Source of the DNA: Ktedonobacterales bacterium
Lineage (GTDB): Bacteria > Chloroflexota > Ktedonobacteria > Ktedonobacterales > JADMIN01
Reading direction: 5' to 3'
Assembly (NCBI GenBank): GCA_030167145.1
Contig: CP126532.1
Coordinates: 3,870,001 to 3,902,000, forward strand
DNA: 32,000 nt
Shown: positions 1-32,000 of the stretch, piece by piece
Numbering within the stretch: the stretch's first letter is position 1
Layout of the letters: every line of letters begins with the position of its first letter
Notes under the pieces: model-generated
Seen by the model: only the letters and a program-made list of their open reading frames with translations
Database searches by the model: none
Told to the model about the DNA's origin: nothing
Position numbers and translations under genes: made by a program

Positions 1-2060
1 ATTATCGGGATGAACTGCTGCGCTGCGGCGGGCACATCTTCGCTGGACTGGCGCGCAAACAACTGCTGGCGCTGCTGCAACGCCGCTGCGCTGAACTGGG
101 CGTCAGCATGCGCTTCAATACCGAGGTTGCCGATGTCGCGGCGCTCGATGGCGGCTACGACCTGCTGATCGCCGCCGACGGCGTGAATAGCCTGGTCCGC
201 AAGACGTTCGCCGATATCTTTAAGCCGAGCCTCGTGCCTGGTAAGGCGCGCTACATCTGGCTCGGCATGGAGAAGGTGCTCGACGCTTTCACCTTCATCT
301 TTCGCGAGAATGAGCATGGTCTCTTTCAGGTGCATTCCTATCCGTTCGACGGCACGACCAGCACCTTCATCGTGGAGTGCGATGAGACGACATGGCGGCG
401 CGCGGGATTGGACGCCGCCAGTGAGGACGAGAGCATCACATACTGCGAGCGCCTCTTTGCGCCGGAGCTAGCTGGGCGGCGGCTATTGCCGAATAACTCG
501 AAGTGGATCAACTTCGTCACGGTGAAGAACGCGACGTGGCGGCATGGCAACATCGTGCTGCTGGGCGACGCCGCGCACACCGCGCACTTCTCCATCGGCT
601 CCGGCACCAAACTGGCGATGGAAGACGCTATCGCGCTGGCGAACGCGCTGGATACGCACCCCGACCTGGATACCGCGTTGGGCGAATATGAAGCGGAGCG
701 ACGGCCGGTGGTGGAGCTTTTCCAGGCGGCGGCGGCTGAAAGCCAGAGCTACTTCGAGAACGTCAAACGCTACACGCGACTGACTCCGGTTGAGTTCACC
801 TTCAACCTGCTGACGCGCAGCAGGCGCATCACCTATGACGACCTGCGGCTGCGCGACCCGCGCTTCGGCAATATCGTGGATCGTGAGTTCGAGCGACGCT
901 ATTGGGCGGGGCAGGGGCGCAGTATCTTCACGCTGATCGCACCGCCGCCGATGTTCGCGCCGCTGACGCTGCGCGGGCTGCGGGTGGCGAATCGCGCCGT
1001 CTTCACGCCGGCTACGACGGGCCAGGCGGTGAGTGGCGTGCCCTGCACCGGCGACGCGCTGGAGCTGGCGCGGCTGGCCCAGGACGGCGCGGGCATGGTG
1101 CTAACCGAGCCAGTGGCCGTCGCCACTGAAGGGCGCATCACCTCCGATAGCGCCTGTTTGCACGAGGATGAGCATCTGCGCGCGTGGACGCGCATCATTC
1201 AGGCGATTCATACGCAATCGCCCGCCAAGGTCGCTATGCCGCTCAACCACGCGGGATGGCGCGGCGCGACACGTCCGCGCGGCATGGGACTCGACCGTCC
1301 GCTACGCGACGGCGCGTGGCCGCTCGTCTCCGCCTCTGCGCTGCCCTATACTGAGCGTAGCCAGACGCCACGTGCGCTCGACCGCGCTGGAATGGAGGGA
1401 ATGCGCGACGTCTTCGCGCATTCGGCGCATCTCGCGGATGCGGCGGGCGTGGACCTGCTAATCCTGCACATGGGGCACGGCTATCTGCTGTCGAGCTTCC
1501 TCTCACCGCTGACGAATCGTCGCGATGACGAGTATGGCGGCACGCTGGAGCAGCGCATGCGCTTCCCGCTGGAGGTCTTCGACGCGGTACGCGCGGCGTG
1601 GCCGCATGAGAAGCCGCTGGCCGTCGCGCTCAACGTCACCGATAGCGTGCGCGGCGGCTTTGGGCCGGACGACGCGGCAACCGTTGCGCGGACGCTCAAA
1701 GAGCATGGCTGCGATCTGCTGGTGGCGCTGGCGGGGTATGTTGTGCCGCAGACGGAGATGCCCTACCGGCGCGGCTTCCTAACACCGCTGAGCGAGCGCA
1801 TCCGCAATGATTCCGGCCTGCCCACGCTGGTCGGCGGCTACCTGACCACGGCGGACGAGGTGAACACGCTGCTGGCGGGTGGCCGCGCCGACCTCTGCCT
1901 GATGCTGCCGCCGCAGGAGACGCGCACGCGCAGCCGTAGCGCGCCGACAGTGGCGACAGACGCACGAGAAGCGCGCGCAACGGCAGATGTCCGTGAGGAA
2001 AGTATGCCGGAGGCTGGTACGCCCGCACGCGAGGTGCGCCGGGTGGAGAAGAAGGAGTAG
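1..2060 (+). CDS. Bifunctional FAD-dependent aromatic acyl-CoA monooxygenase fused to an Old-Yellow-Enzyme-like flavin reductase (2-aminobenzoyl-CoA monooxygenase/reductase or salicylyl-CoA 5-hydroxylase family); 5' partial
   Basis: The frame is open from nt 3: YRDELLRCGGHIFAGLARKQLLALLQRRCAELGV precedes the first listed Met at 108, so the CDS runs off the left edge. The N-terminal part has FAD-monooxygenase motifs (DLLIAADGVNSLVR; LLGDAAHTAHFSIGSGTKLAMEDA). The C-terminal part is OYE/TIM-barrel-like (HMGHGYLLSSFLSPLTNRRDDEYGG). Stop is TAG at 2058-2060. The tail is low-complexity and rich in R, E and A. Confidence 0.8.
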   Translation, partial: YRDELLRCGGHIFAGLARKQLLALLQRRCAELGVSMRFNTEVADVAALDGGYDLLIAADGVNSLVRKTFADIFKPSLVPGKARYIWLGMEKVLDAFTFIFRENEHGLFQVHSYPFDGTTSTFIVECDETTWRRAGLDAASEDESITYCERLFAPELAGRRLLPNNSKWINFVTVKNATWRHGNIVLLGDAAHTAHFSIGSGTKLAMEDAIALANALDTHPDLDTALGEYEAERRPVVELFQAAAAESQSYFENVKRYTRLTPVEFTFNLLTRSRRITYDDLRLRDPRFGNIVDREFERRYWAGQGRSIFTLIAPPPMFAPLTLRGLRVANRAVFTPATTGQAVSGVPCTGDALELARLAQDGAGMVLTEPVAVATEGRITSDSACLHEDEHLRAWTRIIQAIHTQSPAKVAMPLNHAGWRGATRPRGMGLDRPLRDGAWPLVSASALPYTERSQTPRALDRAGMEGMRDVFAHSAHLADAAGVDLLILHMGHGYLLSSFLSPLTNRRDDEYGGTLEQRMRFPLEVFDAVRAAWPHEKPLAVALNVTDSVRGGFGPDDAATVARTLKEHGCDLLVALAGYVVPQTEMPYRRGFLTPLSERIRNDSGLPTLVGGYLTTADEVNTLLAGGRADLCLMLPPQETRTRSRSAPTVATDAREARATADVREESMPEAGTPAREVRRVEKKE

Positions 2061-2067
2061 CGCGAGC

Positions 2068-2859
2068 ATGAGCGATGATCTCTCGCTGCGCGGCAAGCGC
2101 GCCGTGGTGACGGGCGCGAGCCGTGGCATTGGCCGCGCTATCGCGCTGGCGCTGGCTGAGGCGGGCGCGGATGTCGCCGTCAGCGCGCGCACCAAGAGCG
2201 AACTGGACGAACTGGCCGAGATGATACACGCGATGGGTCGGCGCGCTATCGCCGTCGCCTGCGATGTGACGGATCCGCAGCAGGTCGCGGTCCATCTCGC
2301 GGGCGGCGTGTTGGGCGAGTTCGGCGGCATAGATATTCTGGTGAACAACGCGGGGGCGTCGGGTAGCGCCAAGTTCGTTGGGCATCCCGATGAGCTATGG
2401 CACCGCATGCTGGCGATGAACATGACCAGCGTCTACTACGTCAGCAAGGCGTTCGCGCCTGCGATGATCGCGCAGCGTTCCGGGCGGATCATCACCATTG
2501 CCTCGATTGCCGCGCGGGTGGGCGCGAAGTATATCGCCGCCTACACCGCCGCCAAGCATGGCGCGCTGGGGCTGGTGCGCGCGCTGGCTGTCGAACTGCT
2601 GCCCTATAACATCACCGTCAACGCGATTTGCCCCGGCTATGTGGATACGCCGATGACGCAGGCGAACATCGCCAACATGGTGCAGCGCACCGGCATGAGC
2701 GAGCAGCAGGCGCGCGAATCGTTGGAGCGGATGAGTCCACAGCAGCGGCTGATTACGCCGGAGGAGGTGGCGCGGGTCGCCGTCTTCCTGGCGCAAGACG
2801 CCGCTGCCAGCATCACCGGCCAGGCGATCAACGTGGACGGCGGCGCGATCATGTCGTGA
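2068..2859 (+). CDS. Short-chain dehydrogenase/reductase (3-hydroxyacyl-CoA / 3-oxoacyl reductase-like)
   Basis: ATG at 2068 lies 8 nt after the upstream stop, with GAAGGAG at 2051-2057. Contains TGASRGIGRAIA (the TGxxxGxG cofactor motif) and the catalytic YTAAKHG (YxxxK). The listed ORF start at 1987 would overlap the upstream gene and has no RBS. Confidence 0.85.
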   Translation: MSDDLSLRGKRAVVTGASRGIGRAIALALAEAGADVAVSARTKSELDELAEMIHAMGRRAIAVACDVTDPQQVAVHLAGGVLGEFGGIDILVNNAGASGSAKFVGHPDELWHRMLAMNMTSVYYVSKAFAPAMIAQRSGRIITIASIAARVGAKYIAAYTAAKHGALGLVRALAVELLPYNITVNAICPGYVDTPMTQANIANMVQRTGMSEQQARESLERMSPQQRLITPEEVARVAVFLAQDAAASITGQAINVDGGAIMS

Positions 2860-2908
2860 GCGCCCGCTCTTACCCATGCGGGAGACGAGGAATATTCAGG
2901 AGTCTTCG

Positions 2909-3700
2909 ATGGCATACGACTTTGATTTCGTGGTGGACGACGGCGTCGCCACGCTGACGCTGAACCGCCCGGAGGTGATGAACGCGCTCACATTCGATGT
3001 GTACGCGCAGCTACGTGACCTGTTTGCGGACATGCGCCACGACGAGAGTGTGCGCGCCGTCATCCTCACTGGCGCGGGTGACAACTTCTGTTCCGGCGGC
3101 GACGTGCAGGAAATCATCGGCGAACTCTTGAAGCGTGACATGAAGGGCCACATCGAATTCACGCGCTTGACCGGCGCGGTGGTGCAGAACATGCGCCTGC
3201 TCGACAAGCCGATCATCGCCGCGCTGAACGGCATGGTCGCGGGCGCTGGCTCGGTGCTGGCGCTCGCCTCGGACCTGCGTATCGCCTCGGAGCGGACGCG
3301 CTTCGCGTTCCTCTTCACCAAGGTCGGCCTGACCGGTGCGGATATGGGCGCGGGCTATTTGCTGCCGCGCATCGTCGGGCTGGGTCGCGCCTTCGAGCTA
3401 TTGTTGCTTGGCGATACGATAGACGCGCCCACTGCCGAACGCTACGGCCTGGTCAACCGCGTCGTGCCGCACGACGACCTGATGGGGACTGCGCGAACCT
3501 GGGCGCGGCGCATCGCGGATGGCCCCACGCTGGCGCTTTCGATGACCAAGCGCATGATTACCAACGAACTGGGCATGGATCTCGTTTCCGCCATCGAAGC
3601 GGAGGCGCAGGCGCAGGCGCTGCTGCTGATGGGCGAAGATCACCGCGCCTTCTACGAGGCGTTTACGGCGAAGCAGAAGCCGAAATGGACGGGACGGTAG
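2909..3700 (+). CDS. Enoyl-CoA hydratase/isomerase (crotonase) family protein
   Basis: ATG at 2909 is preceded by CAGGAG. Crotonase motifs are present: LTLNRPEVMNAL, FCSGGDV and ALNGMVAGAGSVLALASDLRIA. Confidence 0.85.
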   Translation: MAYDFDFVVDDGVATLTLNRPEVMNALTFDVYAQLRDLFADMRHDESVRAVILTGAGDNFCSGGDVQEIIGELLKRDMKGHIEFTRLTGAVVQNMRLLDKPIIAALNGMVAGAGSVLALASDLRIASERTRFAFLFTKVGLTGADMGAGYLLPRIVGLGRAFELLLLGDTIDAPTAERYGLVNRVVPHDDLMGTARTWARRIADGPTLALSMTKRMITNELGMDLVSAIEAEAQAQALLLMGEDHRAFYEAFTAKQKPKWTGR

Positions 3701-6825: not shown

Positions 6826-6860
6826 ATGCCCTATGCCCTATGCCCTATGCCCTATGCCCC
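6826..6860. repeat. Heptanucleotide microsatellite: four copies of ATGCCCT plus one ATGCCCC
   Basis: Read directly: ATGCCCT ATGCCCT ATGCCCT ATGCCCT ATGCCCC. It is intergenic, about 125 nt upstream of the small ORF at 6986. Confidence 0.95.
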
Positions 6861-6985
6861 TATTCACAGGAGGCGCAATCATGGCGTTCTTGCTGCGCCT
6901 GCCATTTCGCCGCAAGCGGCAGGCCGTTTCGCAACTGGCCGTAACATCGGATACACTATCCACTGACCCCGGAGGAGCGATACCC

Positions 6986-12784: not shown

Positions 12785-12803
12785 GGGTGTCACCTTCGCT
12801 TTC

Positions 12804-12907
12804 GGGCGTCCGCCGGACGCCCCTACGGATGCGATTGCGGGCGTCTGCCGGACGCCCCTACAATGCGATCACTTCGTTCAGACGGGCGAGGCGGGCCTCG
12901 CCCCTAC
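12804..12907 (+). repeat. Cluster of three REP-like hairpins in a single 137-bp intergenic gap
   Basis: Copies are GGGCGTCCGCCGGACGCCCCTAC (12804-12826), GGGCGTCTGCCGGACGCCCCTAC (12839-12861) and GGGCGAGGCGGGCCTCGCCCCTAC (12884-12907). All three are in the same orientation. Confidence 0.9.
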
Positions 12908-19164: not shown

Positions 19165-19216
19165 TTGAAACCGCGCGACGGGCGTCCGCCGGACGCCCCT
19201 CCGGACGCCCCTACAG
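19165..19216 (+). repeat. Composite REP element: TTGAAACCGCGCGAC module plus hairpin with a duplicated 3' arm
   Basis: TTGAAACCGCGCGAC GGGCGTCCGCCGGACGCCCCT CCGGACGCCCCTACAG. The 3' arm and tail occur twice. Confidence 0.85.
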
Positions 19217-20088: not shown

Positions 20089-20207
20089 AGTTGTATTTCT
20101 TGCGACTTTTGTCAGCAATCGCTACGTAAAATAACTCTGCTCGCCTGTAATAATAGCCGGATATATGTAAAGTAAGAATGAATTTCTCGATGAGTTTTAC
20201 CAGCCCC

Positions 20208-20236
20208 TTGACAAACTCTAAAGGTCCAGCTATACT
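20208..20236 (+). promoter_or_regulatory. Near-consensus sigma-70 promoter: TTGACA, 17-nt spacer, TATACT
   Basis: TTGACA is at 20208-20213, the spacer is exactly 17 nt, and TATACT is at 20231-20236. It is preceded by about 110 nt of AT-rich sequence in an otherwise GC-rich genome. Confidence 0.55.
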
Positions 20237-20251
20237 CCTTTCAACCTATAG

Positions 20252-20276
20252 AAAGGAGGCAGAAAATATGAGATAA
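20252..20276 (+). other. Strong SD followed by a 2-codon mini-ORF (ATG AGA TAA)
   Basis: AAAGGAGG at 20252-20259, then an 8-nt spacer, then ATG at 20268, AGA and TAA (20274-20276). The repeat array starts at the very next base. Confidence 0.4.
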
Positions 20277-20635
20277 GCACCTCACCGATAGGCCTTGGCA
20301 GGACTCCCGTTTGTTTGATCCCTTCGCACCTCACCGATAGGCCTTGGCAGGACTCCCGTTTGTTTGATCCCTTCGCACCTCACCGATAGGCCTTGGCAGG
20401 ACTCCCGTTTGTTTGATCCCTTCGCACCTCACCGATAGGCCTTGGCAGGACTCCCGTTTGTTTGATCCCTTCGCACCTCACCGATAGGCCTTGGCAGGAC
20501 TCCCGTTTGTTTGATCCCTTCGCACCTCACCGATAGGCCTTGGCAGGACTCCCGTTTGTTTGATCCCTTCGCACCTCACCGATAGGCCTTGGCAGGACTC
20601 CCGTTTGTTTGATCCCTTCGCACCTCACCGATAGG
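20277..20635 (+). repeat. Perfect tandem array: seven full copies plus a 16-nt partial copy of a 49-bp unit; non-coding
   Basis: The unit is GCACCTCACCGATAGGCCTTGGCAGGACTCCCGTTTGTTTGATCCCTTC. Units start at 20277, 20326, 20375, 20424, 20473, 20522 and 20571, with a partial copy at 20620-20635. I read no mismatches. A length of 49 is not a multiple of 3, and stop codons occur on both strands. Confidence 0.95.
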
Positions 20636-20682
20636 CGCGAAGGGGGTAGGTTTGTCATGTTTACAGGAAGGGAACACTTTAG

Positions 20683-21765
20683 ATGCGAAGAACGTTGACA
20701 TGGAAGCTCACACTCCTAGTGAGCACCATCGTTGCCGCTTGCGTGGTCTCGTTTACGTCCGCCGTGTATGCGGGAGCGCCGAATTCGCCGCAGAATCTCT
20801 CGATGGGTGGTTGGACTGGTGGGCCAGGCCCGACGACCGTCCAGGATCCACAATGGGTCGCCTTGAAGCTGGCGCATCGAATCCGCTCCGGCGTTCTACC
20901 GGGTCAGGCAAAGGGCACGGCTGCTCATCCCTATGTTACCGCAGCATCCGTCGTGCCGCTGACGCCTAGTTCCTGGGAACTGACCCTCAACAATCCAGTG
21001 CCAACCATTTGGGAGCCTGGTAGTGGATGCACAGGTTGCTCGAATTTCGGATCAGGTACCGCGAACTATGACGACGCCAGACACACCTACTCTGCCAGTG
21101 CCTTTCCGAAGCTCTGCGGACCGGGCGCCGCCGACGTTGCGCTCTACTACTGGCCGGCCCCTCCCAATTTGTGGAACAACCCCAGCGTAACAGACACCTG
21201 GGATGGGGGAACTCCCACCACATGGAACGGATACGATGTTGACAGCGTGGCTCGCACACGCGGTTACATGATGAAGCTCGCCTGGCAGATCAAGGCGCCG
21301 ACCTGGTCTGCTTCTGGTATGATGAACGCGCAGCCTAAGAGTTCGGCTGTTTGGCTCCAGGTCGTGCGTGATGCCTTGAATTGGGAGGCATCTGGCGAGA
21401 ACACCAGCAACTGGACCAACTACATCTACGTCGTCGTATGGTATCCCGGCCAAGGTCAGACCGACTTCCACAACGATGTAGTTGGCGACATCTACACCAA
21501 TAACGTACCAGTTGTAGCCGAAGTCAACGCGCAGATGATGCCCAACTGGACCAACAATGGCGGCCGGACAAATCACTACATCACGATCATCGGCTACGAC
21601 GACAACGCAGGCATCTATTACTATACCGACACATGTGGCCACAGTACAGGATGTGGCTCAAAGTATGACGGTGGTGTCCGTACTGCATCTCAGACGACAG
21701 TGTGGAACGCCATCACCAACATCCCATATAACCAGAGCACTGGTGATGGCGGTTGGATCTGGTAA
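20683..21765 (+). CDS. Secreted papain-fold cysteine peptidase-like protein (C39-like domain)
   Basis: The SD GGAAGGGA lies 9 nt before the ATG. The signal peptide is MRRTLTWKLTLLVSTIVAACVVSFTSAVYA/GA. A candidate catalytic Cys sits in KLCGPGAADVALYYW and a candidate His in TNHYITIIGYDDNAGIYYYTD, which is the C39-like pattern as I recall it. GC3 is lower than in the flanking genes. Confidence 0.65.
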   Translation: MRRTLTWKLTLLVSTIVAACVVSFTSAVYAGAPNSPQNLSMGGWTGGPGPTTVQDPQWVALKLAHRIRSGVLPGQAKGTAAHPYVTAASVVPLTPSSWELTLNNPVPTIWEPGSGCTGCSNFGSGTANYDDARHTYSASAFPKLCGPGAADVALYYWPAPPNLWNNPSVTDTWDGGTPTTWNGYDVDSVARTRGYMMKLAWQIKAPTWSASGMMNAQPKSSAVWLQVVRDALNWEASGENTSNWTNYIYVVVWYPGQGQTDFHNDVVGDIYTNNVPVVAEVNAQMMPNWTNNGGRTNHYITIIGYDDNAGIYYYTDTCGHSTGCGSKYDGGVRTASQTTVWNAITNIPYNQSTGDGGWIW

Positions 21766-21790
21766 TCAATCCGCGTTGGGCTGAGCGAGA

Positions 21791-21822
21791 CACGTTCGTC
21801 AGCATCACTGCTGACGAACGTG
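21791..21822 (+). terminator. Perfect 14-bp stem hairpin after the peptidase gene
   Basis: CACGTTCGTCAGCA TCAC TGCTGACGAACGTG, located 26 nt after the stop. There is no U-tract, so it could be a terminator or a processing or stability hairpin. Confidence 0.5.
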
Positions 21823-21933
21823 CGCCATCAAAGTTTCCGCAGAGAAGAAGATGCCACGCAAGCTGTTACAGGCTGGCTGGTTAGCCCATGAGGCACTGCA
21901 GCCTGCTACCTCGTGAGAAGGGATAAAGTAGCC

Positions 21934-23154
21934 ATGCCCAAGAGGATCCATAGATTACATTTGCTGGTGGAACGCACATATGCCAGACCAATCGCCCGAT
22001 CTCTCCATTGGGCTGCCATCTTGCCGCTACTCACTCTGCTAGTTGCCGGATGCGCCCAAACGGCGGCACAGCGCCGCCCAACCACACAGTCGCCTCCCTC
22101 TCCGACGTTTGCGTCCACCACCACACCAACCCCGCCTCCCAACTTGCCGACGTTCTCCGATTGGCGTGTGGCGTATCAGTCCCCAGACGGTATTCTGCAT
22201 GCAATTACTCTTGATGGCAAGACAGATGTTGCTGGCCCGCTCCTGCCAGGATTGATCACTACTGGTAATCAAAGCACGAGCGCGGGTGCCTCGCCCAATG
22301 GCCAGATGCTCGCCTATGACGGGGACGGAGGCTTGGTGATTCTAGGGATGAGTGCGGATGCCATTGGCAGCACTAATGCGCGGGTTGCAGGAATGTATGA
22401 AATGTTCTGGTCGCCAGATGGCAGTCAGGTGGCGATTAGCGATGGTGTCGGAGGTCTCTCGGTAGTGGTCCCTGCCTCTGGCCAACCCAGGCCGATCCCA
22501 AGCCCACATGGGCATGTACTCGGCCATCTCATCGGTTGGATTGATGGTGGCCACCTTGCGGTTGAGGTGGTCAATTCTGCGACGGCAGCCACGGTCGGCG
22601 CGCTCGATGTGATCACTGGCGAATTGCGGATTATTGCGACGATTCATTCCTCCGAATTGGGCACCTACACGTACTCGCTTTCTCCTGATGGCAAGACGCT
22701 GCTCTTCTCCAATTCGATCTTGGGGAACGACCCGTATACACCGCTGGTCGCCAAGATTGATACTGCCACCGGTGTAATTACCCCATTACCACGTATTGCA
22801 AACATCAACCGATATTCGGGATTCACAAGCGCGGCCTGGCGACCGGGCACAGAAAAAATTGCGGTCTCCACTGGCTTTACGGCAAACGGCGATCTGAAGT
22901 CCTGGGTGCTAGATCTGCGCAACGACACGGCTACCCACCTGTTAGATGGCCAGTATGTGGACGGCTGGGCACCAGATAATGGGCCTTTGATTCTCACAGT
23001 GTCGCAAAAAATGCCCGATAACGACATAGTTATTGGTGGGGGGCCGTTCACCATCACTGCTGCGACGATCTCCTCGAATGGGCAGGTCTCGACGACCGTT
23101 CTCACTCAGCAGGCGATGACGTTTCCGTTCATTGGATTCGTGCGCACTGCCTGA
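21934..23154 (+). CDS. Lipoprotein with TolB/PD40-like beta-propeller repeats
   Basis: ATG at 21934. A lipobox is present (LLTLLVAGC). A Pro/Thr linker is followed by repeated motifs SPNGQMLAY, WSPDGSQVAISD, SLSPDGKTLLFS and AWRPGTEKIAVS. Confidence 0.7.
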   Translation: MPKRIHRLHLLVERTYARPIARSLHWAAILPLLTLLVAGCAQTAAQRRPTTQSPPSPTFASTTTPTPPPNLPTFSDWRVAYQSPDGILHAITLDGKTDVAGPLLPGLITTGNQSTSAGASPNGQMLAYDGDGGLVILGMSADAIGSTNARVAGMYEMFWSPDGSQVAISDGVGGLSVVVPASGQPRPIPSPHGHVLGHLIGWIDGGHLAVEVVNSATAATVGALDVITGELRIIATIHSSELGTYTYSLSPDGKTLLFSNSILGNDPYTPLVAKIDTATGVITPLPRIANINRYSGFTSAAWRPGTEKIAVSTGFTANGDLKSWVLDLRNDTATHLLDGQYVDGWAPDNGPLILTVSQKMPDNDIVIGGGPFTITAATISSNGQVSTTVLTQQAMTFPFIGFVRTA

Positions 23155-29442: not shown

Positions 29443-29518
<76 letters not shown>

Positions 29519-29580: not shown

Positions 29581-29789
29581 TGCGTATTGGCAGCCAAACG
29601 CATCCGCAACGCATTCGCACGTCACCCCTGACATTGCCATGGGCCAGGACTACGGCGCACGCGCTGTGCAAACCACCCTGAGCCAACCTTAGCCTACTCG
29701 TAGTCACATACTTTTTGGCAAACCTGCTCGTCATTCACTTATTGAACTTACGTTTAAGACTATGATCTTACAACGCGACAACATAGATA

Positions 29790-29818
29790 TTGACAAGCGC
29801 TTATCCGTTGTGTATACT
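29790..29818 (+). promoter_or_regulatory. Near-consensus sigma-70 promoter: TTGACA, 17-nt spacer, TATACT (same hexamers as at 20208)
   Basis: TTGACA is at 29790-29795, the spacer is 17 nt, and TATACT is at 29813-29818. Confidence 0.5.
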
Positions 29819-30019
29819 GCTCTCGTCTCAAGTTTCAAAGGAGGCGGCGAATACACACTGGAGTCGCACGTTGCATGACGCAACGTTGTGTCATGCGGCT
29901 TCCGTGATGCCTGCCAGTACGCTACATTGCGACTCACCAGTTGGCAAGATGGCGGGATAGCTAGTTCGAGCGCAGCGTAGTGGCCAAGATGCATCCAATA
30001 CTCTCGAAGGGATCTAACC

Positions 30020-30403
30020 GTGCCGACGCTCCCAGTGACACTGCTCTCCATCCCAATCAACAATCCGTTTCCCGTGACTCTGGCGCTAAGCGCAGCCGCC
30101 ATTGCTATCTTTGGTATCGAGCTGGCGGTAGCCAAGCTGCATATACATCCCCAAAATAGGATGTACTTCTTTATGGTTAGCTGCTTAGCTCTTGGGGTGA
30201 TACTCGCAGTGTGGTCTGGTTATTACGCTCTCCAAGGGCCGTCTGCCGCAGAGCCCATAATTCACGGTTCCGGCGCTCATAACACTTACTATGATTTCTA
30301 CGCAAATGTGTGGGCTGCAAATGTCGCCATCTTCCTCGTGATGAGCATACTGGTGCTAGTAATTGGAATCGCGCTGACAAGGCAAAGGAGACAGAGGGGA
30401 TGA
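30020..30403 (+). CDS. Small integral membrane protein (3 predicted TM helices)
   Basis: GTG at 30020 has GAAGGGA 7 nt upstream. Hydrophobic segments are FPVTLALSAAAIAIFGIELAVA, YFFMVSCLALGVILAVWSGYYAL and ANVAIFLVMSILVLVIGIALT, followed by RQRRQRG. The start is uncertain. Confidence 0.5.
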   Translation: MPTLPVTLLSIPINNPFPVTLALSAAAIAIFGIELAVAKLHIHPQNRMYFFMVSCLALGVILAVWSGYYALQGPSAAEPIIHGSGAHNTYYDFYANVWAANVAIFLVMSILVLVIGIALTRQRRQRG

Positions 30404-30603
30404 GGCTATGCGCTATGCAGGCGCTTCCGCTCCACTACTAGGCCTATGGCTGATTCATCCAACGGTGGAGCACCCGATGCCAGTCCTTCTATCTCGCACT
30501 TCCAGCAAACAGTGCTGAGCCGAGTTTTCGGATGTGCCATGTAGCGAGGGCACAGTAGCAATCGAGGTAGTCTACTTGCCTCGACAGTCGACAGGAGGCG
30601 AAT

Positions 30604-31344
30604 ATGTCGCGAGCATCTGCCCTATTAAGACTGGTATTAGTGGCACTCGTCGTTACAACCGGCTTTACGATGCTTACGTCGAAATCTGCCTTTGCCTACT
30701 CCTGCGACGGATACTTTTGTCACTACCATATGTGGGCAAATTCAGGTTCTGGCGCAAACGGCACGCGAGGATACATAACTGCTCCGACAAGCATCTCTGG
30801 CATTTCAAGCCAGAATGAGGACACCCTGACGTTGTCAACTTGGATGTGGGGATCAGCTGGGACTGGATACCAATCCTCAGTCGAAGCGGGATTAGCCTAC
30901 GGTTACGCAAGTTACTGTGGAACCTACGTAGCCTACTGGCATCCTTATGGCACCAAAGACAACGGCGGTACTGGACAAGAGGCGTGCGGCACACATCTTT
31001 ACGGAGGGACGTCCTATCTAACATCTGCATATCACTCGGGAAGCAACGCCCATTCTCGGGTGCAAGATGGATCAACCATCGTTTTCGATTATAACTGGGG
31101 ATCATACAGCGATATCTTTGGATTTGACAACATGTCCCAATACGAAGTATGGGCGACGCAAGGGCAATCCGTGCCTTCGTGGGGAAGCTCGAGTATTGGG
31201 GGGTTGCAGTGGGAAGACTCCAACGGCAACTGGAACTACTGGGGATTTTTGAACACAAGTACAGACAATCAAAATGGTTGTCCATACACCTCGCTCAAAT
31301 TGAGCAGCATCGCTTTCCAAGGATATAAGTCATCCGGGTGCTAG
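30604..31344 (+). CDS. Secreted hypothetical protein, rich in G/S/Y/W, with 6 Cys
   Basis: AGGAGG lies 5 nt before the ATG. The signal peptide is MSRASALLRLVLVALVVTTGFTMLTSKSAFA/YS. I recognise no family with confidence. Confidence 0.7.
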   Translation: MSRASALLRLVLVALVVTTGFTMLTSKSAFAYSCDGYFCHYHMWANSGSGANGTRGYITAPTSISGISSQNEDTLTLSTWMWGSAGTGYQSSVEAGLAYGYASYCGTYVAYWHPYGTKDNGGTGQEACGTHLYGGTSYLTSAYHSGSNAHSRVQDGSTIVFDYNWGSYSDIFGFDNMSQYEVWATQGQSVPSWGSSSIGGLQWEDSNGNWNYWGFLNTSTDNQNGCPYTSLKLSSIAFQGYKSSGC

Positions 31345-31353
31345 TCGAAAGGG

Positions 31354-31387
31354 AGAGCCATCTCGAGCGGCAATTCGAGATGGCTCT
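31354..31387 (+). terminator. Perfect 13-bp stem hairpin after the secreted-protein gene
   Basis: AGAGCCATCTCGA GCGGCAAT TCGAGATGGCTCT, located 10 nt after the stop. There is no clear U-tract. Confidence 0.5.
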
Positions 31388-31419
31388 TACGGCCCACCGC
31401 ATGGAAAGAGACTCTAACA

Positions 31420-32000
31420 ATGCGCATACAGTGGACAAACAATGGTAACACACATAACAGGAGCTTACCCCTCTCGTTTGCAGGTGTGTTGATAGTTGTC
31501 TTGGTACTGGCAGCATTTAAGTTGACATCATCACCACAGGAGATGCAGCCTACAGCGCTAACCTTGCAACAGGGTGACGTCGGACAAGATTTTCGCTTGA
31601 TGGTGAACGCACAATCAGGCCCAACACAGAAGGCGCTAATCGCACCATCCTACCAAAAGCAGTTCATAGGGGGAAATCTCAAATATTACATGAACGTAAA
31701 TGTATTTGAGCAGAGCAGCCTCGACGAAATCAACAACTGGGCCAAGGCGCATAGTGTGCCGGTGACCTACCCTCCTACCATTGAAGGCTCGTATGTCGTT
31801 GATCATCACGGAATCTTTGCGATTACCAGCCAGGTTTTGCTTTATGCCGATGAGAAGTCTGCGATAGCAGACTTTCACTGCTGTACTTATGTAGGCAGGC
31901 AGGATAGTTTTTCAGGGTACAGAGATATTTCAGTCCAAATTGGCAATGAAGCAACTGCTTTCGGCGGTATATTAGATTCACCTGCACATGCTCCTGCATA
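31420..32000 (+). CDS. Membrane-anchored hypothetical protein, 3' partial (absent from the supplied ORF track because it has no stop in the window)
   Basis: My own translation from the ATG at 31420 gives MRIQWTNNGNTHNRSLPLSFAGVLIVVLVLAAFKLTSSPQEMQPTALTLQQGDVGQDF... It stays open for 193 codons to the window edge and has one N-terminal TM helix. Confidence 0.5.
   Translation, partial: MRIQWTNNGNTHNRSLPLSFAGVLIVVLVLAAFKLTSSPQEMQPTALTLQQGDVGQDFRLMVNAQSGPTQKALIAPSYQKQFIGGNLKYYMNVNVFEQSSLDEINNWAKAHSVPVTYPPTIEGSYVVDHHGIFAITSQVLLYADEKSAIADFHCCTYVGRQDSFSGYRDISVQIGNEATAFGGILDSPAHAPA

What the first reader, a model, noticed from the sequence alone, without database searches (positions are those of the whole stretch)
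20208..20698. Consensus promoter, SD plus 2-codon mini-ORF, then 7.3 perfect 49-bp non-coding repeats carrying an anti-SD tract, all in the leader of a secreted peptidase gene
Seen in sequence: (1) TTGACA-17 nt-TATACT at 20208-20236. (2) AAAGGAGG lies 8 nt before ATG AGA TAA (20268-20276). (3) Seven identical 49-bp units directly abut that stop codon (20277-20619), followed by a 16-nt eighth start. (4) The array cannot be coding. Its length of 49 is not a multiple of 3, TAG and TGA occur on the + strand and TGA on the - strand, and the track lists no ORF there. (5) I read no substitutions between copies. (6) The + strand RNA would be pyrimidine-rich (31 of 49 nt are C or T), and I find no stable hairpin within a unit. 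(7) Every unit ends in TCCCTTC, the exact complement of GAAGGGA (20667-20673), which is the SD 9 nt before the ATG at 20683 of the signal-peptide-bearing peptidase gene. (8) The junction GATCCCTTCGCACCTCACC loosely recalls the 16S 3' tail GGATCACCTCCTT. (9) The last CCCTTCGC (20614-20621) can pair with GCGAAGGG (20637-20644). (10) A 13-codon uORF (ATG 20657 to TGA 20698) overlaps the peptidase SD and start codon. Inference: the leader is about 440 nt long. It may act as a multi-copy cis anti-SD trap, or as a C-rich unstructured Rho-loading tract. In either case it could be gated by a mini-ORF whose only sense codon is AGA, a codon that the GC-rich genes of this window almost never use. Alternative explanations are a stand-alone repeat ncRNA, a protein-binding array, or an expansion-prone minisatellite that tunes expression. 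I know of no described element with this architecture.
Basis: partly seen in the sequence, partly recalled or inferred. Interest (0 to 1): 0.8.

Follow-up and report, generated by a model that had tools for sequence, protein, structure and literature searches.

The report
Variable 49-bp repeat in gene leader
The perfect 49-bp repeats are a real, non-coding, copy-number-variable minisatellite in the 5' leader of a secreted-peptidase gene of a soil Ktedonobacterales bacterium; a related genome has only one copy, so this is a new example of the known repeat-based "expression dial" rather than a new kind of element.

Summary
A near-consensus promoter, a strong SD with ATG-AGA-TAA, then 7 perfect 49-bp units plus a 17-nt partial copy (20277-20636) precede a signal-peptide-bearing C39-like peptidase gene. 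The array is non-coding and matches no Rfam family.

A related genome (L050, flanks 86-90% identical) has the same promoter, SD, mini-ORF and leader but only 1.3 copies of the unit. A second lineage repeats the pattern: L013 has at least 6 perfect copies of a 21-bp unit, and its relatives L173/L174 have 1.6. Both units contain GCAGGAC and ATCCCyTCGC. So this is a copy-number-variable leader minisatellite (VNTR).

Folding models predict that the SD becomes occluded as copies are added (46% accessible at 1 copy, under 1% at 7), and that this depends on TCCCTTC. The same test on the 21-bp array shows no such effect, so SD trapping is at most lineage-specific.

The AGA mini-ORF gating idea is weak, because AGA-TAA lies inside a conserved GATAAGCA leader motif that occurs without a start codon elsewhere. 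The 13-codon uORF and the post-array hairpin are not conserved.

Closest precedents are the H. influenzae hmw 5'-UTR repeats and the M. tuberculosis promoter tandem repeats. Verdict: a new member of a known kind, of moderate interest.

The parts
20208..20236 (+). Sigma-70-type promoter, TTGACA-17 nt-TATACT. The TSS near 20243 is inferred.
   Evidence: It matches 11 of 12 consensus positions. It is conserved in L050. Comparable consensus promoters precede most orthologues. Transcription itself was not tested.
20252..20276 (+). AAAGGAGG, an 8-nt spacer, then the two-codon mini-ORF ATG AGA TAA (20268-20276).
   Evidence: Read directly from the sequence. It is one of only two such SD-preceded mini-ORFs in the window. 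It is conserved in L050 only.
20272..20279 (+). GATAAGCA, a conserved motif near the 5' end of the leader that overlaps the mini-ORF stop codon and the first bases of the array.
   Evidence: The motif occurs 5 times in 586 kb of homologous loci. Four of those lie 9-35 nt downstream of the -10 box of this gene's promoter, in the window, L050, L014 and L023.
20277..20636 (+). Tandem array of 7 perfect 49-bp units plus a 17-nt partial unit. The unit is GCACCTCACCGATAGGCCTTG-GCAGGAC-TCCCGTTTGTTTG-ATCCCTTC. GCAGGAC first occurs at 20298-20304 and TCCCTTC at 20319-20325, and both recur every 49 bp.
   Evidence: TRF gives 100% identity with score 720. Seven exact copies were found against 0 expected. 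It is non-coding and has no Rfam match. The orthologous site in L050 has 1.3 copies.
20637..20644 (+). GCGAAGGG, complementary to CCCTTCGC at the end of the last unit. It forms the predicted local hairpin.
   Evidence: It pairs in the MFE and centroid folds. It is weakened to GCAAAGCGG in L050.
20663..20675 (+). ACAGGAAGGGAAC, which contains the presumed SD GAAGGGA (20667-20673) 9 nt before the start codon.
   Evidence: Read from the sequence. It is identical in L050. L013 and L173 carry the related TCAGGAAGAGACC. In models it is occluded by the TCCCTTC copies.
20683..21765 (+). Secreted C39-like cysteine peptidase gene of 360 aa, with its signal peptide at 20683-20772.
   Evidence: The Pfam Peptidase_C39_2 hit is weak, E = 0.002 and below the curated cut-off. 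It has 122 homologues, mostly from Ktedonobacterales, some named C39 family peptidase. Cys145, His298 and Asp316 are invariant.
21913..23154 (+). Second cassette gene, a PD40-like putative lipoprotein that co-occurs with the peptidase in homologous loci.
   Evidence: Pfam PD40 hit. The same gene pair is present in L001, L003, L009, L010 and L050.
20773..23154 (+). Hypervariable low-GC cassette (mature peptidase, spacer and PD40-like gene) headed by the conserved leader and signal peptide.
   Evidence: It is 47-65% identical to L050, against 86-90% for the flanks, leader and signal peptide. GC is 52-59% against 62-70% in the flanks.

Best explanation
The array is a copy-number-variable minisatellite (VNTR) inside the transcribed 5' leader of a two-gene cassette in a Ktedonobacterales (Chloroflexota) genome. 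The cassette encodes a secreted C39-like peptidase and a PD40-like protein.

Shown:
- The 49-bp unit is an ordinary piece of the orthologous leader. A related genome carries it once, plus the 17-nt partial copy.
- In this genome it has been amplified to 7.3 perfectly identical copies.
- A second lineage of the same gene family shows the same thing with a 21-bp unit, 1.6 copies against at least 6.
- In the single-copy relative, both copies of the flanking 17-mer carry the same two substitutions. This indicates repeated expansion, contraction and homogenisation.

Inferred:
- Expansion and contraction occur by replication slippage or unequal recombination between the direct repeats.
- Because the promoter lies upstream and no other promoter or terminator is detectable, the array is transcribed as part of the mRNA leader.
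- Each added unit lengthens an untranslated, unstructured, pyrimidine-rich leader and adds one more UCCCUUC tract that can pair with the GAAGGGA Shine-Dalgarno sequence.
- With one copy, that tract is taken up by the local partner GCGAAGGG and the SD stays open. With three or more copies, spare tracts sequester the SD.
- Copy number would then act as a heritable, reversible dial that lowers expression of a fast-evolving secreted protein, as in a contingency locus.
For: Array anatomy:
- The array is perfect and non-coding.

Lineage A, the window against L050:
- L050's promoter, SD, mini-ORF, unit, post-array leader and signal peptide are 87-90% identical to the window's, but L050 has 1.3 copies.
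- The L050 contig runs straight through the site. The k=31 assembly of the window's own organism breaks exactly at the array. L050 is therefore a true low-copy state.
- Both 17-mers in L050 read GCACACCACC, where the window's copies read GCACCTCACC.

Lineage B:
- L013 has at least 6 perfect 21-bp units (GCAGGAC-CGC-ATCCCCTCGC-C) at its contig end, 36 nt before the gene.
- L173 and L174, from two different samples, have the identical unit in 1.6 copies, although their cassette genes are only 71% identical to L013's.

Lineage C:
- All 16 contigs carrying P0003, and the contig carrying P0002, begin at the same point 96-100 nt before the gene, inside a repeated 30-mer that contains GGCAGGA.

Transcription context:
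- Consensus promoters precede most orthologues.
- No terminator-like site and no second + strand promoter-like site lies between the array and the gene.

SD occlusion model:
- Mean P(unpaired SD) is 0.49, 0.46, 0.29, 0.024 and 0.008 for N = 0, 1, 2, 3 and 7 copies.
- Mutating TCCCTTC restores it to 0.41-0.47.
- The opening energy is 11.1 kcal/mol, against 5.0 +/- 1.5 (maximum 8.9) for 30 shuffled-unit arrays.
- The native L050 leader is predicted open, at 0.45.

Precedents:
- hmw1A expression is inversely proportional to the number of transcribed 5'-UTR repeats, which pair with a downstream G-rich region (PMC12721329).
- M. tuberculosis has 54-58-bp promoter tandem repeats with variable copy number (PMC12817950).
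Against: - There are no expression, transcript or population data. Transcription through the array and any effect on expression are inferred.
- SD occlusion rests on equilibrium folding of a 470-nt RNA, which ignores co-transcriptional folding, ribosomes and proteins.
- The 22-nt opening energy stays high in the TCCCTTC mutant (9-10 kcal/mol), so other contacts contribute.
- The L013 21-bp array does not occlude its SD beyond shuffled controls (0.23 against 0.30 +/- 0.09). SD trapping therefore cannot explain why arrays recur in this leader.
- The direction of the effect is uncertain. A long unstructured pyrimidine-rich leader could instead serve as a ribosome standby or S1-binding site and raise translation.
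- The copy number of 7.3 comes from a single assembly.
- I could not scan the rest of the 5.07-Mb genome for other copies of the unit.
Confidence: 0.6

Rival explanations
1. Functionally neutral minisatellite. The array is a by-product of slippage between direct repeats in a tolerant intergenic region, and copy number has no meaningful effect on expression.
For: Perfect identity implies a very recent expansion. Other orthologous leaders carry unrelated small tandem duplications, such as 14 bp x 3.9 in L018, 2 x 19 bp in L014 and 12-bp duplicates in L010, which suggests a generally slippage-prone region. The window has another perfect leader repeat, ATGCCCT x 4.9 at 6826-6859. The motif sharing between the 49-bp and 21-bp units is only modestly significant, about 1.4-2.7% of shuffles.
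Against: Arrays or their 1.x-copy remnants persist at the same leader position in at least two, and probably three, lineages whose proteins are only 45-60% identical. GGCAGGA recurs in the repeated part in all of them. The real unit occludes the SD far more than composition-matched shuffled units do.
Confidence: 0.2
2. Rho-loading tract. After the ribosome leaves the mini-ORF, about 400 nt of untranslated, unstructured, C-over-G RNA acts as a rut site. Longer arrays would give more premature termination before the peptidase gene. This could act together with SD occlusion.
For: C/G is 1.55 and pyrimidines are 63%. The leader is less structured than all 100 shuffles, z = +4.2. It has no long ORF and no intrinsic terminator-like site. 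From general knowledge, Rho needs about 70-80 nt of untranslated, unstructured, C-rich RNA, and in the E. coli tna operon the rut site adjoins the leader-peptide stop codon.
Against: The C excess is moderate, 35% C against 22% G. I did not test whether this genome has Rho. A ribosome on a two-codon ORF can shield only about 15 nt of a 360-nt array, so the mini-ORF cannot gate Rho access.
Confidence: 0.12
3. Array of binding sites for a trans-acting factor, either an RNA-binding or a DNA-binding protein that recognises GGCAGGAC and/or ATCCCyTCGC. The leader would then act as a cis sponge or cooperative operator, and a related CAGGAAGrGAmC site next to the start codon would be the regulated target.
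For: GCAGGAC and ATCCCyTCGC are the parts shared by two arrays of different unit length. GGCAGGA lies in the repeated 30-mers of L003 and L051. CAGGAAG(G/A)GA(A/C)C precedes the start codon in the window, L050, L013 and L173. An unstructured RNA is well suited to binding by single-strand-binding proteins.
Against: No candidate regulator gene lies next to the locus. The GGA motifs are not presented in hairpin loops as they are in CsrB/RsmZ. There is no Rfam match. The motif sharing can be explained by common descent of the leader, and cross-lineage alignment is otherwise poor.
Confidence: 0.1
4. Mini-ORF gating. The strongly initiated AUG-AGA-UAA senses or depletes the rare tRNA-Arg(UCU), like a lambda bar minigene, and thereby controls the downstream leader.
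For: The mini-ORF has a strong SD at ideal spacing. AGA accounts for only 10 of 498 Arg codons in 16 genes of the window, and the peptidase's own third codon is AGA. The mini-ORF is conserved in L050.
Against: AGA-TAA lies within the conserved GATAAGCA motif, which L023 carries without any start codon and L014 carries as GTG AGA GGA TAA without an SD. The L173 leader has no such mini-ORF. Conservation in L050 is no more than the local 88% identity predicts.
Confidence: 0.05
5. Stand-alone repeat non-coding RNA, or an assembly artefact.
For: A strong promoter lies directly upstream. Perfect repeats are a classic failure mode of assemblers.
Against: There is no terminator between the array and the gene and no Rfam family match. 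The homologous single-copy leader in L050 runs uninterrupted into the gene. A separately assembled short-read contig breaks exactly at the array junction, as expected for a genuine repeat of at least 2 copies.
Confidence: 0.03

Closest known systems
Haemophilus influenzae hmw1A/hmw2A 5'-UTR heptamer repeats (ATCTTTC)n (PMC12721329)
   Same: Both are pyrimidine-rich tandem repeats lying between the promoter and the start codon. In hmw they are transcribed as part of the 5'-UTR and pair with a purine/G-rich stretch further downstream, and repeat number sets the expression of a secreted or surface protein, inversely. Here the equivalent pairing is UCCCUUC with GAAGGGA and with GCGAAGGG, predicted only.
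   Different: The unit is 49 bp (21 bp in lineage B) rather than 7 bp, with 7 copies rather than 11-28. The pairing partner here is the SD itself, not a separate G-rich arm of a long hairpin. RNase III involvement is unknown. The host is an environmental Chloroflexota bacterium, not a host-adapted pathogen. Nothing has been tested experimentally.
Mycobacterium tuberculosis promoter tandem repeats / MIRU-VNTR loci such as the 58-bp lpdA and 54-56-bp cysG repeats (PMC12817950)
   Same: Both are minisatellite-sized units (about 50 bp) immediately upstream of a gene. Copy number differs between related genomes, and short-read assemblies collapse or break at the repeat.
   Different: The M. tuberculosis repeats duplicate promoter elements upstream of leaderless genes and raise expression. 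Here the unit lies downstream of the promoter and contains no promoter-like site, so any effect would act on the RNA. MIRUs are dispersed at many loci and some carry small coupled ORFs. Here I found no other copy in about 36 kb and the unit cannot be read through.
Moraxella catarrhalis uspA2 AGAT repeats in the 5'-UTR (recalled from memory: Attia and Hansen 2006)
   Same: A tandem repeat within the transcribed leader whose number modulates the expression level rather than switching it on and off.
   Different: It is a tetranucleotide repeat, and no anti-SD content has been described for it.
cis anti-SD leader elements such as ROSE and fourU RNA thermometers and riboswitch expression platforms (from general knowledge)
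   Same: A pyrimidine tract in the leader pairs with the SD to block initiation.
   Different: Those elements use a single anti-SD in a defined and conserved structure that responds to a signal. Here the anti-SD is multiplied by DNA copy number, the leader is otherwise unstructured, and no conserved fold is seen between the window and L050.
CsrB/RsmZ-type multi-GGA sponge RNAs and CsrA-bound leaders
   Same: A GGA-containing motif (CAGGA) is repeated many times, and a related CAGGAAG lies at the SD.
   Different: The GGA motifs are not in hairpin loops. There is no Rfam hit, and no terminator to define an sRNA. Whether this taxon has CsrA is unknown. See the membership test.
Phage lambda bar minigenes (two-codon ORFs causing peptidyl-tRNA drop-off; from general knowledge)
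   Same: A two-codon ORF behind a strong SD, with a rare codon as its only sense codon after the start.
   Different: There is no evidence of toxicity or tRNA sequestration. The motif is conserved without a start codon in another orthologous leader.

Membership tests
Bacterial intergenic VNTR / contingency locus | Head-to-tail tandem copies with very high identity between copies | tested here: met
   There are 7.3 copies at 100% identity.
Bacterial intergenic VNTR / contingency locus | Copy number differs between related genomes at the orthologous site | tested here: met
   The window has 7.3 copies and L050 has 1.3. L013 has at least 6 copies and L173/L174 have 1.6.
Bacterial intergenic VNTR / contingency locus | Placed where length change can alter expression (promoter or 5' leader), typically of a surface or secreted protein | tested here: met
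   The array lies between a consensus promoter and the SD of a gene that carries a signal peptide.
Bacterial intergenic VNTR / contingency locus | High-frequency reversible copy-number change within populations | not testable with these tools
   No read-level data were available. The only indirect hint is the concerted change of both 17-mers in L050.
Bacterial intergenic VNTR / contingency locus | Expression varies with copy number | not testable with these tools
   Only an in-silico prediction of SD accessibility against copy number is available.
MIRU-type interspersed repeats | The same unit is dispersed at many intergenic loci of the genome | tested here: inconclusive
   I found no other copy in the 32-kb window or in the additional 4.4 kb of L002. 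The rest of the 5.07-Mb contig could not be scanned. The unit is part of an orthologous single-copy leader in L050, which argues for a local origin.
MIRU-type interspersed repeats | Units carry small ORFs that overlap the stop and start codons of the flanking genes | tested here: not met
   49 is not a multiple of 3, and stop codons occur in every frame within three units.
hmw-type 5'-UTR repeat hairpin | Transcribed repeats pair with a downstream G-rich region | tested here: inconclusive
   The MFE and centroid folds pair UCCCUUC with GAAGGGA and CCCUUCGC with GCGAAGGG. This is a prediction only, and overall the leader is less structured than shuffles.
hmw-type 5'-UTR repeat hairpin | RNase III processing of the hairpin | not testable with these tools
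   This needs experiments.
CsrB/RsmZ sponge or CsrA-regulated leader | Multiple GGA motifs presented in hairpin loops | tested here: not met
   The leader is unusually unstructured, z = +4.2, and no per-unit hairpin presents the GGA motif.
CsrB/RsmZ sponge or CsrA-regulated leader | Match to a curated RNA family | tested here: not met
   Rfam gave no hit at the gathering threshold, and nothing across the array even at E <= 10.
CsrB/RsmZ sponge or CsrA-regulated leader | CsrA is encoded by the organism | not tested
   The genome could not be searched with the scans that remained.
Lambda bar-type minigene | Two-codon ORF with an efficient SD | tested here: met
   AAAGGAGG, 8 nt, then ATG AGA TAA.
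Lambda bar-type minigene | The ORF itself is the conserved or selected feature | tested here: not met
   The GATAAGCA motif is conserved without a start codon in L023, and with a different ORF in L014.
Rho-dependent leader attenuator | At least 70-80 nt of untranslated, unstructured RNA with more C than G | tested here: met
   About 400 nt are untranslated, C/G is 1.55 and z = +4.2.
Rho-dependent leader attenuator | Rho is present and terminates within the leader | not tested
   No rho gene lies in the window, and there are no transcript data.
CRISPR array | Repeats separated by unique spacers | tested here: not met
   The units abut directly and there are no spacers.

The most novel reading that the evidence does not exclude
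The leader of this Ktedonobacterales gene family carries an old, selectively maintained repeat module (GGCAGGAC ... AUCCCyUCGC). Its copy number would be a heritable translational rheostat for a hypervariable secreted-protein cassette. It could work either through multiplied cis anti-SD tracts or as a cis sponge for an unidentified factor that binds CAGGA and also contacts the CAGGAAGrGAmC site at the start codon. That would be a long-unit, RNA-level contingency system in free-living soil Chloroflexota, a group in which I found no description of such a system.
Probability: 0.15. Interest if true: 0.6.

Novelty: new member of a known kind. Interest (0 to 1): 0.4.

Why it matters
Repeat-number control of gene expression has been worked out almost entirely in host-adapted pathogens such as Haemophilus, Neisseria, Moraxella and Mycobacterium. 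This locus suggests the same evolutionary device operates in a free-living, mycelium-forming soil Chloroflexota lineage.

It has long units (21-49 bp) placed in the transcribed leader, and it heads a secreted-peptidase cassette that diverges much faster than its surroundings.

It also gives a simple, testable design: each unit adds one anti-SD tract, with a predicted switch between 1 and 3 copies.

There is a practical point as well. Short-read assemblies break at exactly these sites (L001, L003, L013, L051), so such loci are systematically missing from most metagenome-assembled genomes.

Tried and rejected
1. Metagenome-wide scan for GGCAGGAM x3 with 12-42-nt gaps. None encoded a peptidase homologue or matched the leader.
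2. Rfam at the gathering threshold and at a permissive E-value. Nothing was found across the array. The only weak hit (Cyano-2, 10 bits, E = 7.6) lies upstream of the array and is noise.
3. A conserved RNA structure. The + strand is less structured than shuffles, the - strand is unremarkable (z = 0.8), and the L050 leader (z = 0.6) folds differently. I built no covariance model because there is no alignable structure across lineages.
4. SD occlusion as the shared function of these arrays. Rejected because the L013 array shows no effect beyond shuffled controls.
5. The uORF at 20657-20698 and the 32-aa ORF at 20178-20276 as coding features. Their frames are not conserved in L050.
6. A promoter inside the unit, which would make this an M. 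tuberculosis-style promoter multiplication. No promoter-like site lies within the array.
7. A mobile or viral origin. The unit is absent from viral contigs and the leader has no plasmid match.
8. N-terminal peptide repeats in the 122 homologues, as a cheap way to spot more arrays. None were found.
9. The GenBank version of the same genome (protein WIG60991.1, locus tag OJF49_003739). It could not be retrieved.
10. A PDB sequence search for the peptidase family. No hit was found.


Full report
**What is there.**
- TTGACA-17-TATACT lies at 20208-20236. It matches 11 of 12 consensus positions and is the best promoter-like site between 19000 and 22500.
- AAAGGAGG at 20252-20259 is followed by 8 nt and then ATG AGA TAA at 20268-20276.
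- The array follows directly. Tandem Repeats Finder gives period 49, 7.3 copies and 100% matches over 20277-20636. A pattern search finds seven exact copies, with none elsewhere in the 32 kb and none expected by chance.
- The partial eighth copy is 17 nt (GCACCTCACCGATAGGC), not 16.
- The array cannot be coding. The longest ORFs across it are 24 aa (+) and 33 aa (-), and they recur with each unit.
- Rfam finds nothing across the array at the gathering threshold or at E <= 10.
- No terminator-like site exists between 19000 and 22500.

**Source and reality of the array.**
- The window comes from a 5.07-Mb contig of JGI metagenome 3300045419. The same genome is in GenBank as a Ktedonobacterales MAG.
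- The downstream protein's homologues are almost all from Ktedonobacterales.
- A separately assembled short-read (Logan, k = 31) contig from run SRR22113990 encodes the identical protein. It starts with exactly the last 30 nt of the array before the unique sequence. That is what a de Bruijn graph produces at the exit of a repeat of at least 2 copies.
- The repeat is therefore real. The exact count of 7.3 rests on one assembly.

**The downstream genes.**
- ORF 20683-21765 has a typical signal peptide (MRRTLTWKLTLLVSTIVAACVVSFTSAVYA/GAP) and a sub-threshold Peptidase_C39_2 hit.
- Cys145, His298 and Asp316 are invariant across 25 homologues.
- A PD40-like putative lipoprotein gene follows at 21913-23154. 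It accompanies the peptidase in the other loci too.
- "Secreted C39-like peptidase" is a fair description. No solved structure matches by sequence.

**The key comparison.** L050 is a Logan contig from another sample and represents a related species.
- Identity to the window, by segment:
  - upstream channel gene: 86%
  - region beyond the cassette: 90%
  - promoter to mini-ORF: 88%
  - repeat unit: 88%
  - post-array leader: 87%
  - signal peptide: 90%
- L050 has the same TTGACA/TATACT promoter, AAAGGAGG and ATGAGATAA. After those it has only one unit plus the 17-nt partial copy, that is 1.3 copies.
- The contig runs linearly through the site. At k = 31, a repeat of 2 or more copies would break it, as happens for the window's own organism. 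So 1.3 is a true state.
- The 49-bp unit is therefore an ordinary segment of the orthologous leader that has been amplified in the window's lineage.
- Both 17-mers in L050 carry the same CT-to-AC difference from the window's copies. That is concerted evolution, the signature of past expansion, homogenisation and contraction.

**A second lineage does the same.**
- L013 is a Ktedonobacterales MAG whose protein is 46-49% identical to the window's. Its contig ends in 6 perfect copies of a 21-bp unit, GCAGGAC-CGC-ATCCCCTCGC-C, 36 nt before the gene.
- Its relatives L173 and L174, from forest and farmland metagenomes, carry the identical unit as CATCCCCTCGCC-GCAGGACCG-CATCCCCTCGCC, which is 1.6 copies. 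Their cassette genes are only 71% identical to L013's.
- In a third group, all 16 contigs carrying P0003 and the contig carrying P0002 start at the homologous point 96-100 nt before the gene, within a repeated 30-mer..CCC..GGCAGGA(C/A).CCCGGTCGC. Their relative L049 has only a degenerate version and assembles through.
- The window unit, rotated, reads GCAGGAC-13 nt-ATCCCTTCGC-19 nt. So the two fully observed arrays share a 7-mer and a 10-mer with one mismatch, in the same order.
- Taken alone this is modestly significant, at about 1.4% of strand-wise shuffles. The recurrence of GGCAGGA in the repeated part of the third group adds to it.
- Alignment of the leaders across lineages is otherwise poor. 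Shared descent of a short leader module is the economical reading.

**What the array may do.**
- The + strand leader RNA (20243-20700) is unusually unstructured. Its MFE is -111.7 kcal/mol against -140.1 +/- 6.8 for shuffles, z = +4.2.
- The minus strand (z = 0.8) and the L050 leader (z = 0.6) are unremarkable, and the window and L050 share no fold.
- The unit is 63% pyrimidine with C/G 1.55.
- I modelled leaders with N units. The mean probability that GAAGGGA is unpaired is:
  - N = 0: 0.49
  - N = 1: 0.46
  - N = 2: 0.29
  - N = 3: 0.024
  - N = 7: 0.008
- Changing TCCCTTC to TCGCATC restores accessibility to 0.41-0.47.
- Thirty arrays of dinucleotide-shuffled units give 0.31 +/- 0.135. Their opening energy is 5.0 +/- 1.5 kcal/mol, against 11.1 for the real array.
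- The model explains the threshold. With one unit, the CCCUUCGC tract is taken up by the adjacent GCGAAGGG. Extra units supply free anti-SD tracts.
- The same test on the L013 array shows nothing beyond shuffled controls. SD trapping therefore does not explain why arrays recur in this leader family.
- The untranslated, unstructured, C-over-G leader is also a plausible Rho substrate. That would push expression in the same direction. I could not test it.

**The mini-ORF and other details.**
- AGA is indeed rare, at 10 of 498 Arg codons in 16 genes. Half of those are in the two cassette genes, and the peptidase's own codon 3 is AGA.
- However, the AGA-TAA of the mini-ORF lies inside GATAAGCA. That 8-mer occurs only 5 times in 586 kb of homologous loci. 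Four of those occurrences are 9-35 nt downstream of the -10 box of this gene's promoter:
  - the window and L050, as the mini-ORF ATG AGA TAA behind AAAGGAGG;
  - L014, as GTG AGA GGA TAA with no SD;
  - L023, with no start codon at all.
- The conserved feature is therefore a motif near the 5' end of the leader, of unknown role, and not the ORF.
- The 13-codon uORF changes frame in L050, and the CCCTTCGC/GCGAAGGG hairpin is weakened there.
- The resemblance to the 16S tail is only a 6-mer.

**Context.**
- The leader heads a hypervariable cassette. From the signal-peptidase site to the end of the PD40-like gene, the window and L050 are only 47-65% identical, against 86-90% on either side. This coincides with a low-GC stretch.
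- The L013 and L173 pair shows the same contrast, with the unit 100% identical and the genes 71%.
- A variable repeat controlling a fast-evolving secreted protein is the classic layout of a contingency locus.

**Comparison with what is known.** The nearest described systems are:
- The H. influenzae hmw1A 5'-UTR heptamer repeats. These are transcribed, they pair with a downstream G-rich region, and expression is inversely proportional to repeat number (PMC12721329).
- The M. tuberculosis promoter tandem repeats of 54-58 bp, with phase-variable copy number (PMC12817950).

This locus differs in several ways. Its unit is long but lies downstream of the promoter. Its pairing partner is the SD itself. 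It occurs in free-living Chloroflexota. A literature search for tandem repeats in Ktedonobacteria found nothing relevant. It fails the tests for CRISPR, MIRU-type coupled ORFs, CsrB-like sponges and known Rfam families, as set out in the membership table.

**Verdict.** The best explanation is a copy-number-variable leader minisatellite that probably dials expression down as it expands. That makes it a new member of a known kind, of moderate interest (0.4).

Noticed in passing
window 20773-23154 (against L050 about 895-3265): The mature peptidase, the intergenic spacer and the PD40-like gene are only 64%, 47% and 65% identical to L050. The flanks, leader and signal peptide are 86-90% identical. 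The boundaries fall at the signal-peptidase site and at the end of the second gene, and the stretch is low in GC. It looks like a hypervariable or recombinationally replaced cassette.
   Followed up: partly
L050 about 880-890 (equivalent to window 20768-20776): A 1-nt deletion (GCGGGAGC to GCGGAGC) at the signal-peptide cleavage site puts the signal peptide out of frame with the mature domain. The Logan gene call therefore starts at the uORF ATG. This is either a pseudogene or an assembly error.
   Followed up: partly
window 20272-20279; L050 689; L014 182; L023 54: GATAAGCA recurs 9-35 nt downstream of the -10 box in four orthologous leaders. It is otherwise nearly absent from 586 kb of homologous loci. 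Its function is unknown.
   Followed up: partly
window 6826-6859: A perfect heptamer repeat, ATGCCCT x 4.9, lies about 10 nt before an AGGAGG SD and the ATG at 6881. It is a second tandem repeat located in a leader within the same window.
   Followed up: no
window 5345, 6758, 12813, 12848, 19189, 19201 (exact), plus 4 sites with one mismatch: The motif GGGGCGTCCGG occurs 10 times with up to 1 mismatch, against about 2 expected. Several of the exact copies sit in short gaps between long ORFs, and some are paired as palindromes or tandem copies (TRF rows 12803-12869 and 19189-19212). It may be a REP-like dispersed element.
   Followed up: partly
window 29443-29518 and 29600-32000: A tRNA-Lys(CTT) gene is followed by a fall in GC to 47-53%. 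In L002 the stretch beyond it holds hypothetical genes and a DUF4096 gene. This may be an island integrated next to the tRNA.
   Followed up: no
L018 2775-2830; L014 245-300; L010 4505-4560: Other orthologous leaders carry unrelated small tandem duplications: ACACGGCTACAAGC x 3.9 in L018, two copies of TTGAGGAGACATTGGACAG in L014, and two 12-bp duplicates in L010. The leader of this gene family seems generally prone to repeats.
   Followed up: no
L173 2426-2555: An ATG at about 2428 (GGAGCACATG) opens a uORF that reads in frame through the 21-bp unit and ends at a TGA inside the start of the main gene (read). Because 21 is a multiple of 3, expansion in L013 would lengthen this uORF by 7 codons per unit.
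   Followed up: no
window 20683 against 20719: The JGI gene call for the peptidase is 348 aa and starts 12 codons downstream of the ATG at 20683. The Logan call is 360 aa. The 360-aa start gives a complete signal peptide and follows the GAAGGGA SD.
   Followed up: partly
window 20178-20276: A 32-aa ORF shares its stop codon with the mini-ORF, ending ...E N M R *. It starts upstream of the promoter, and a 1-nt indel breaks its frame in L050. It is probably not a gene.
   Followed up: partly
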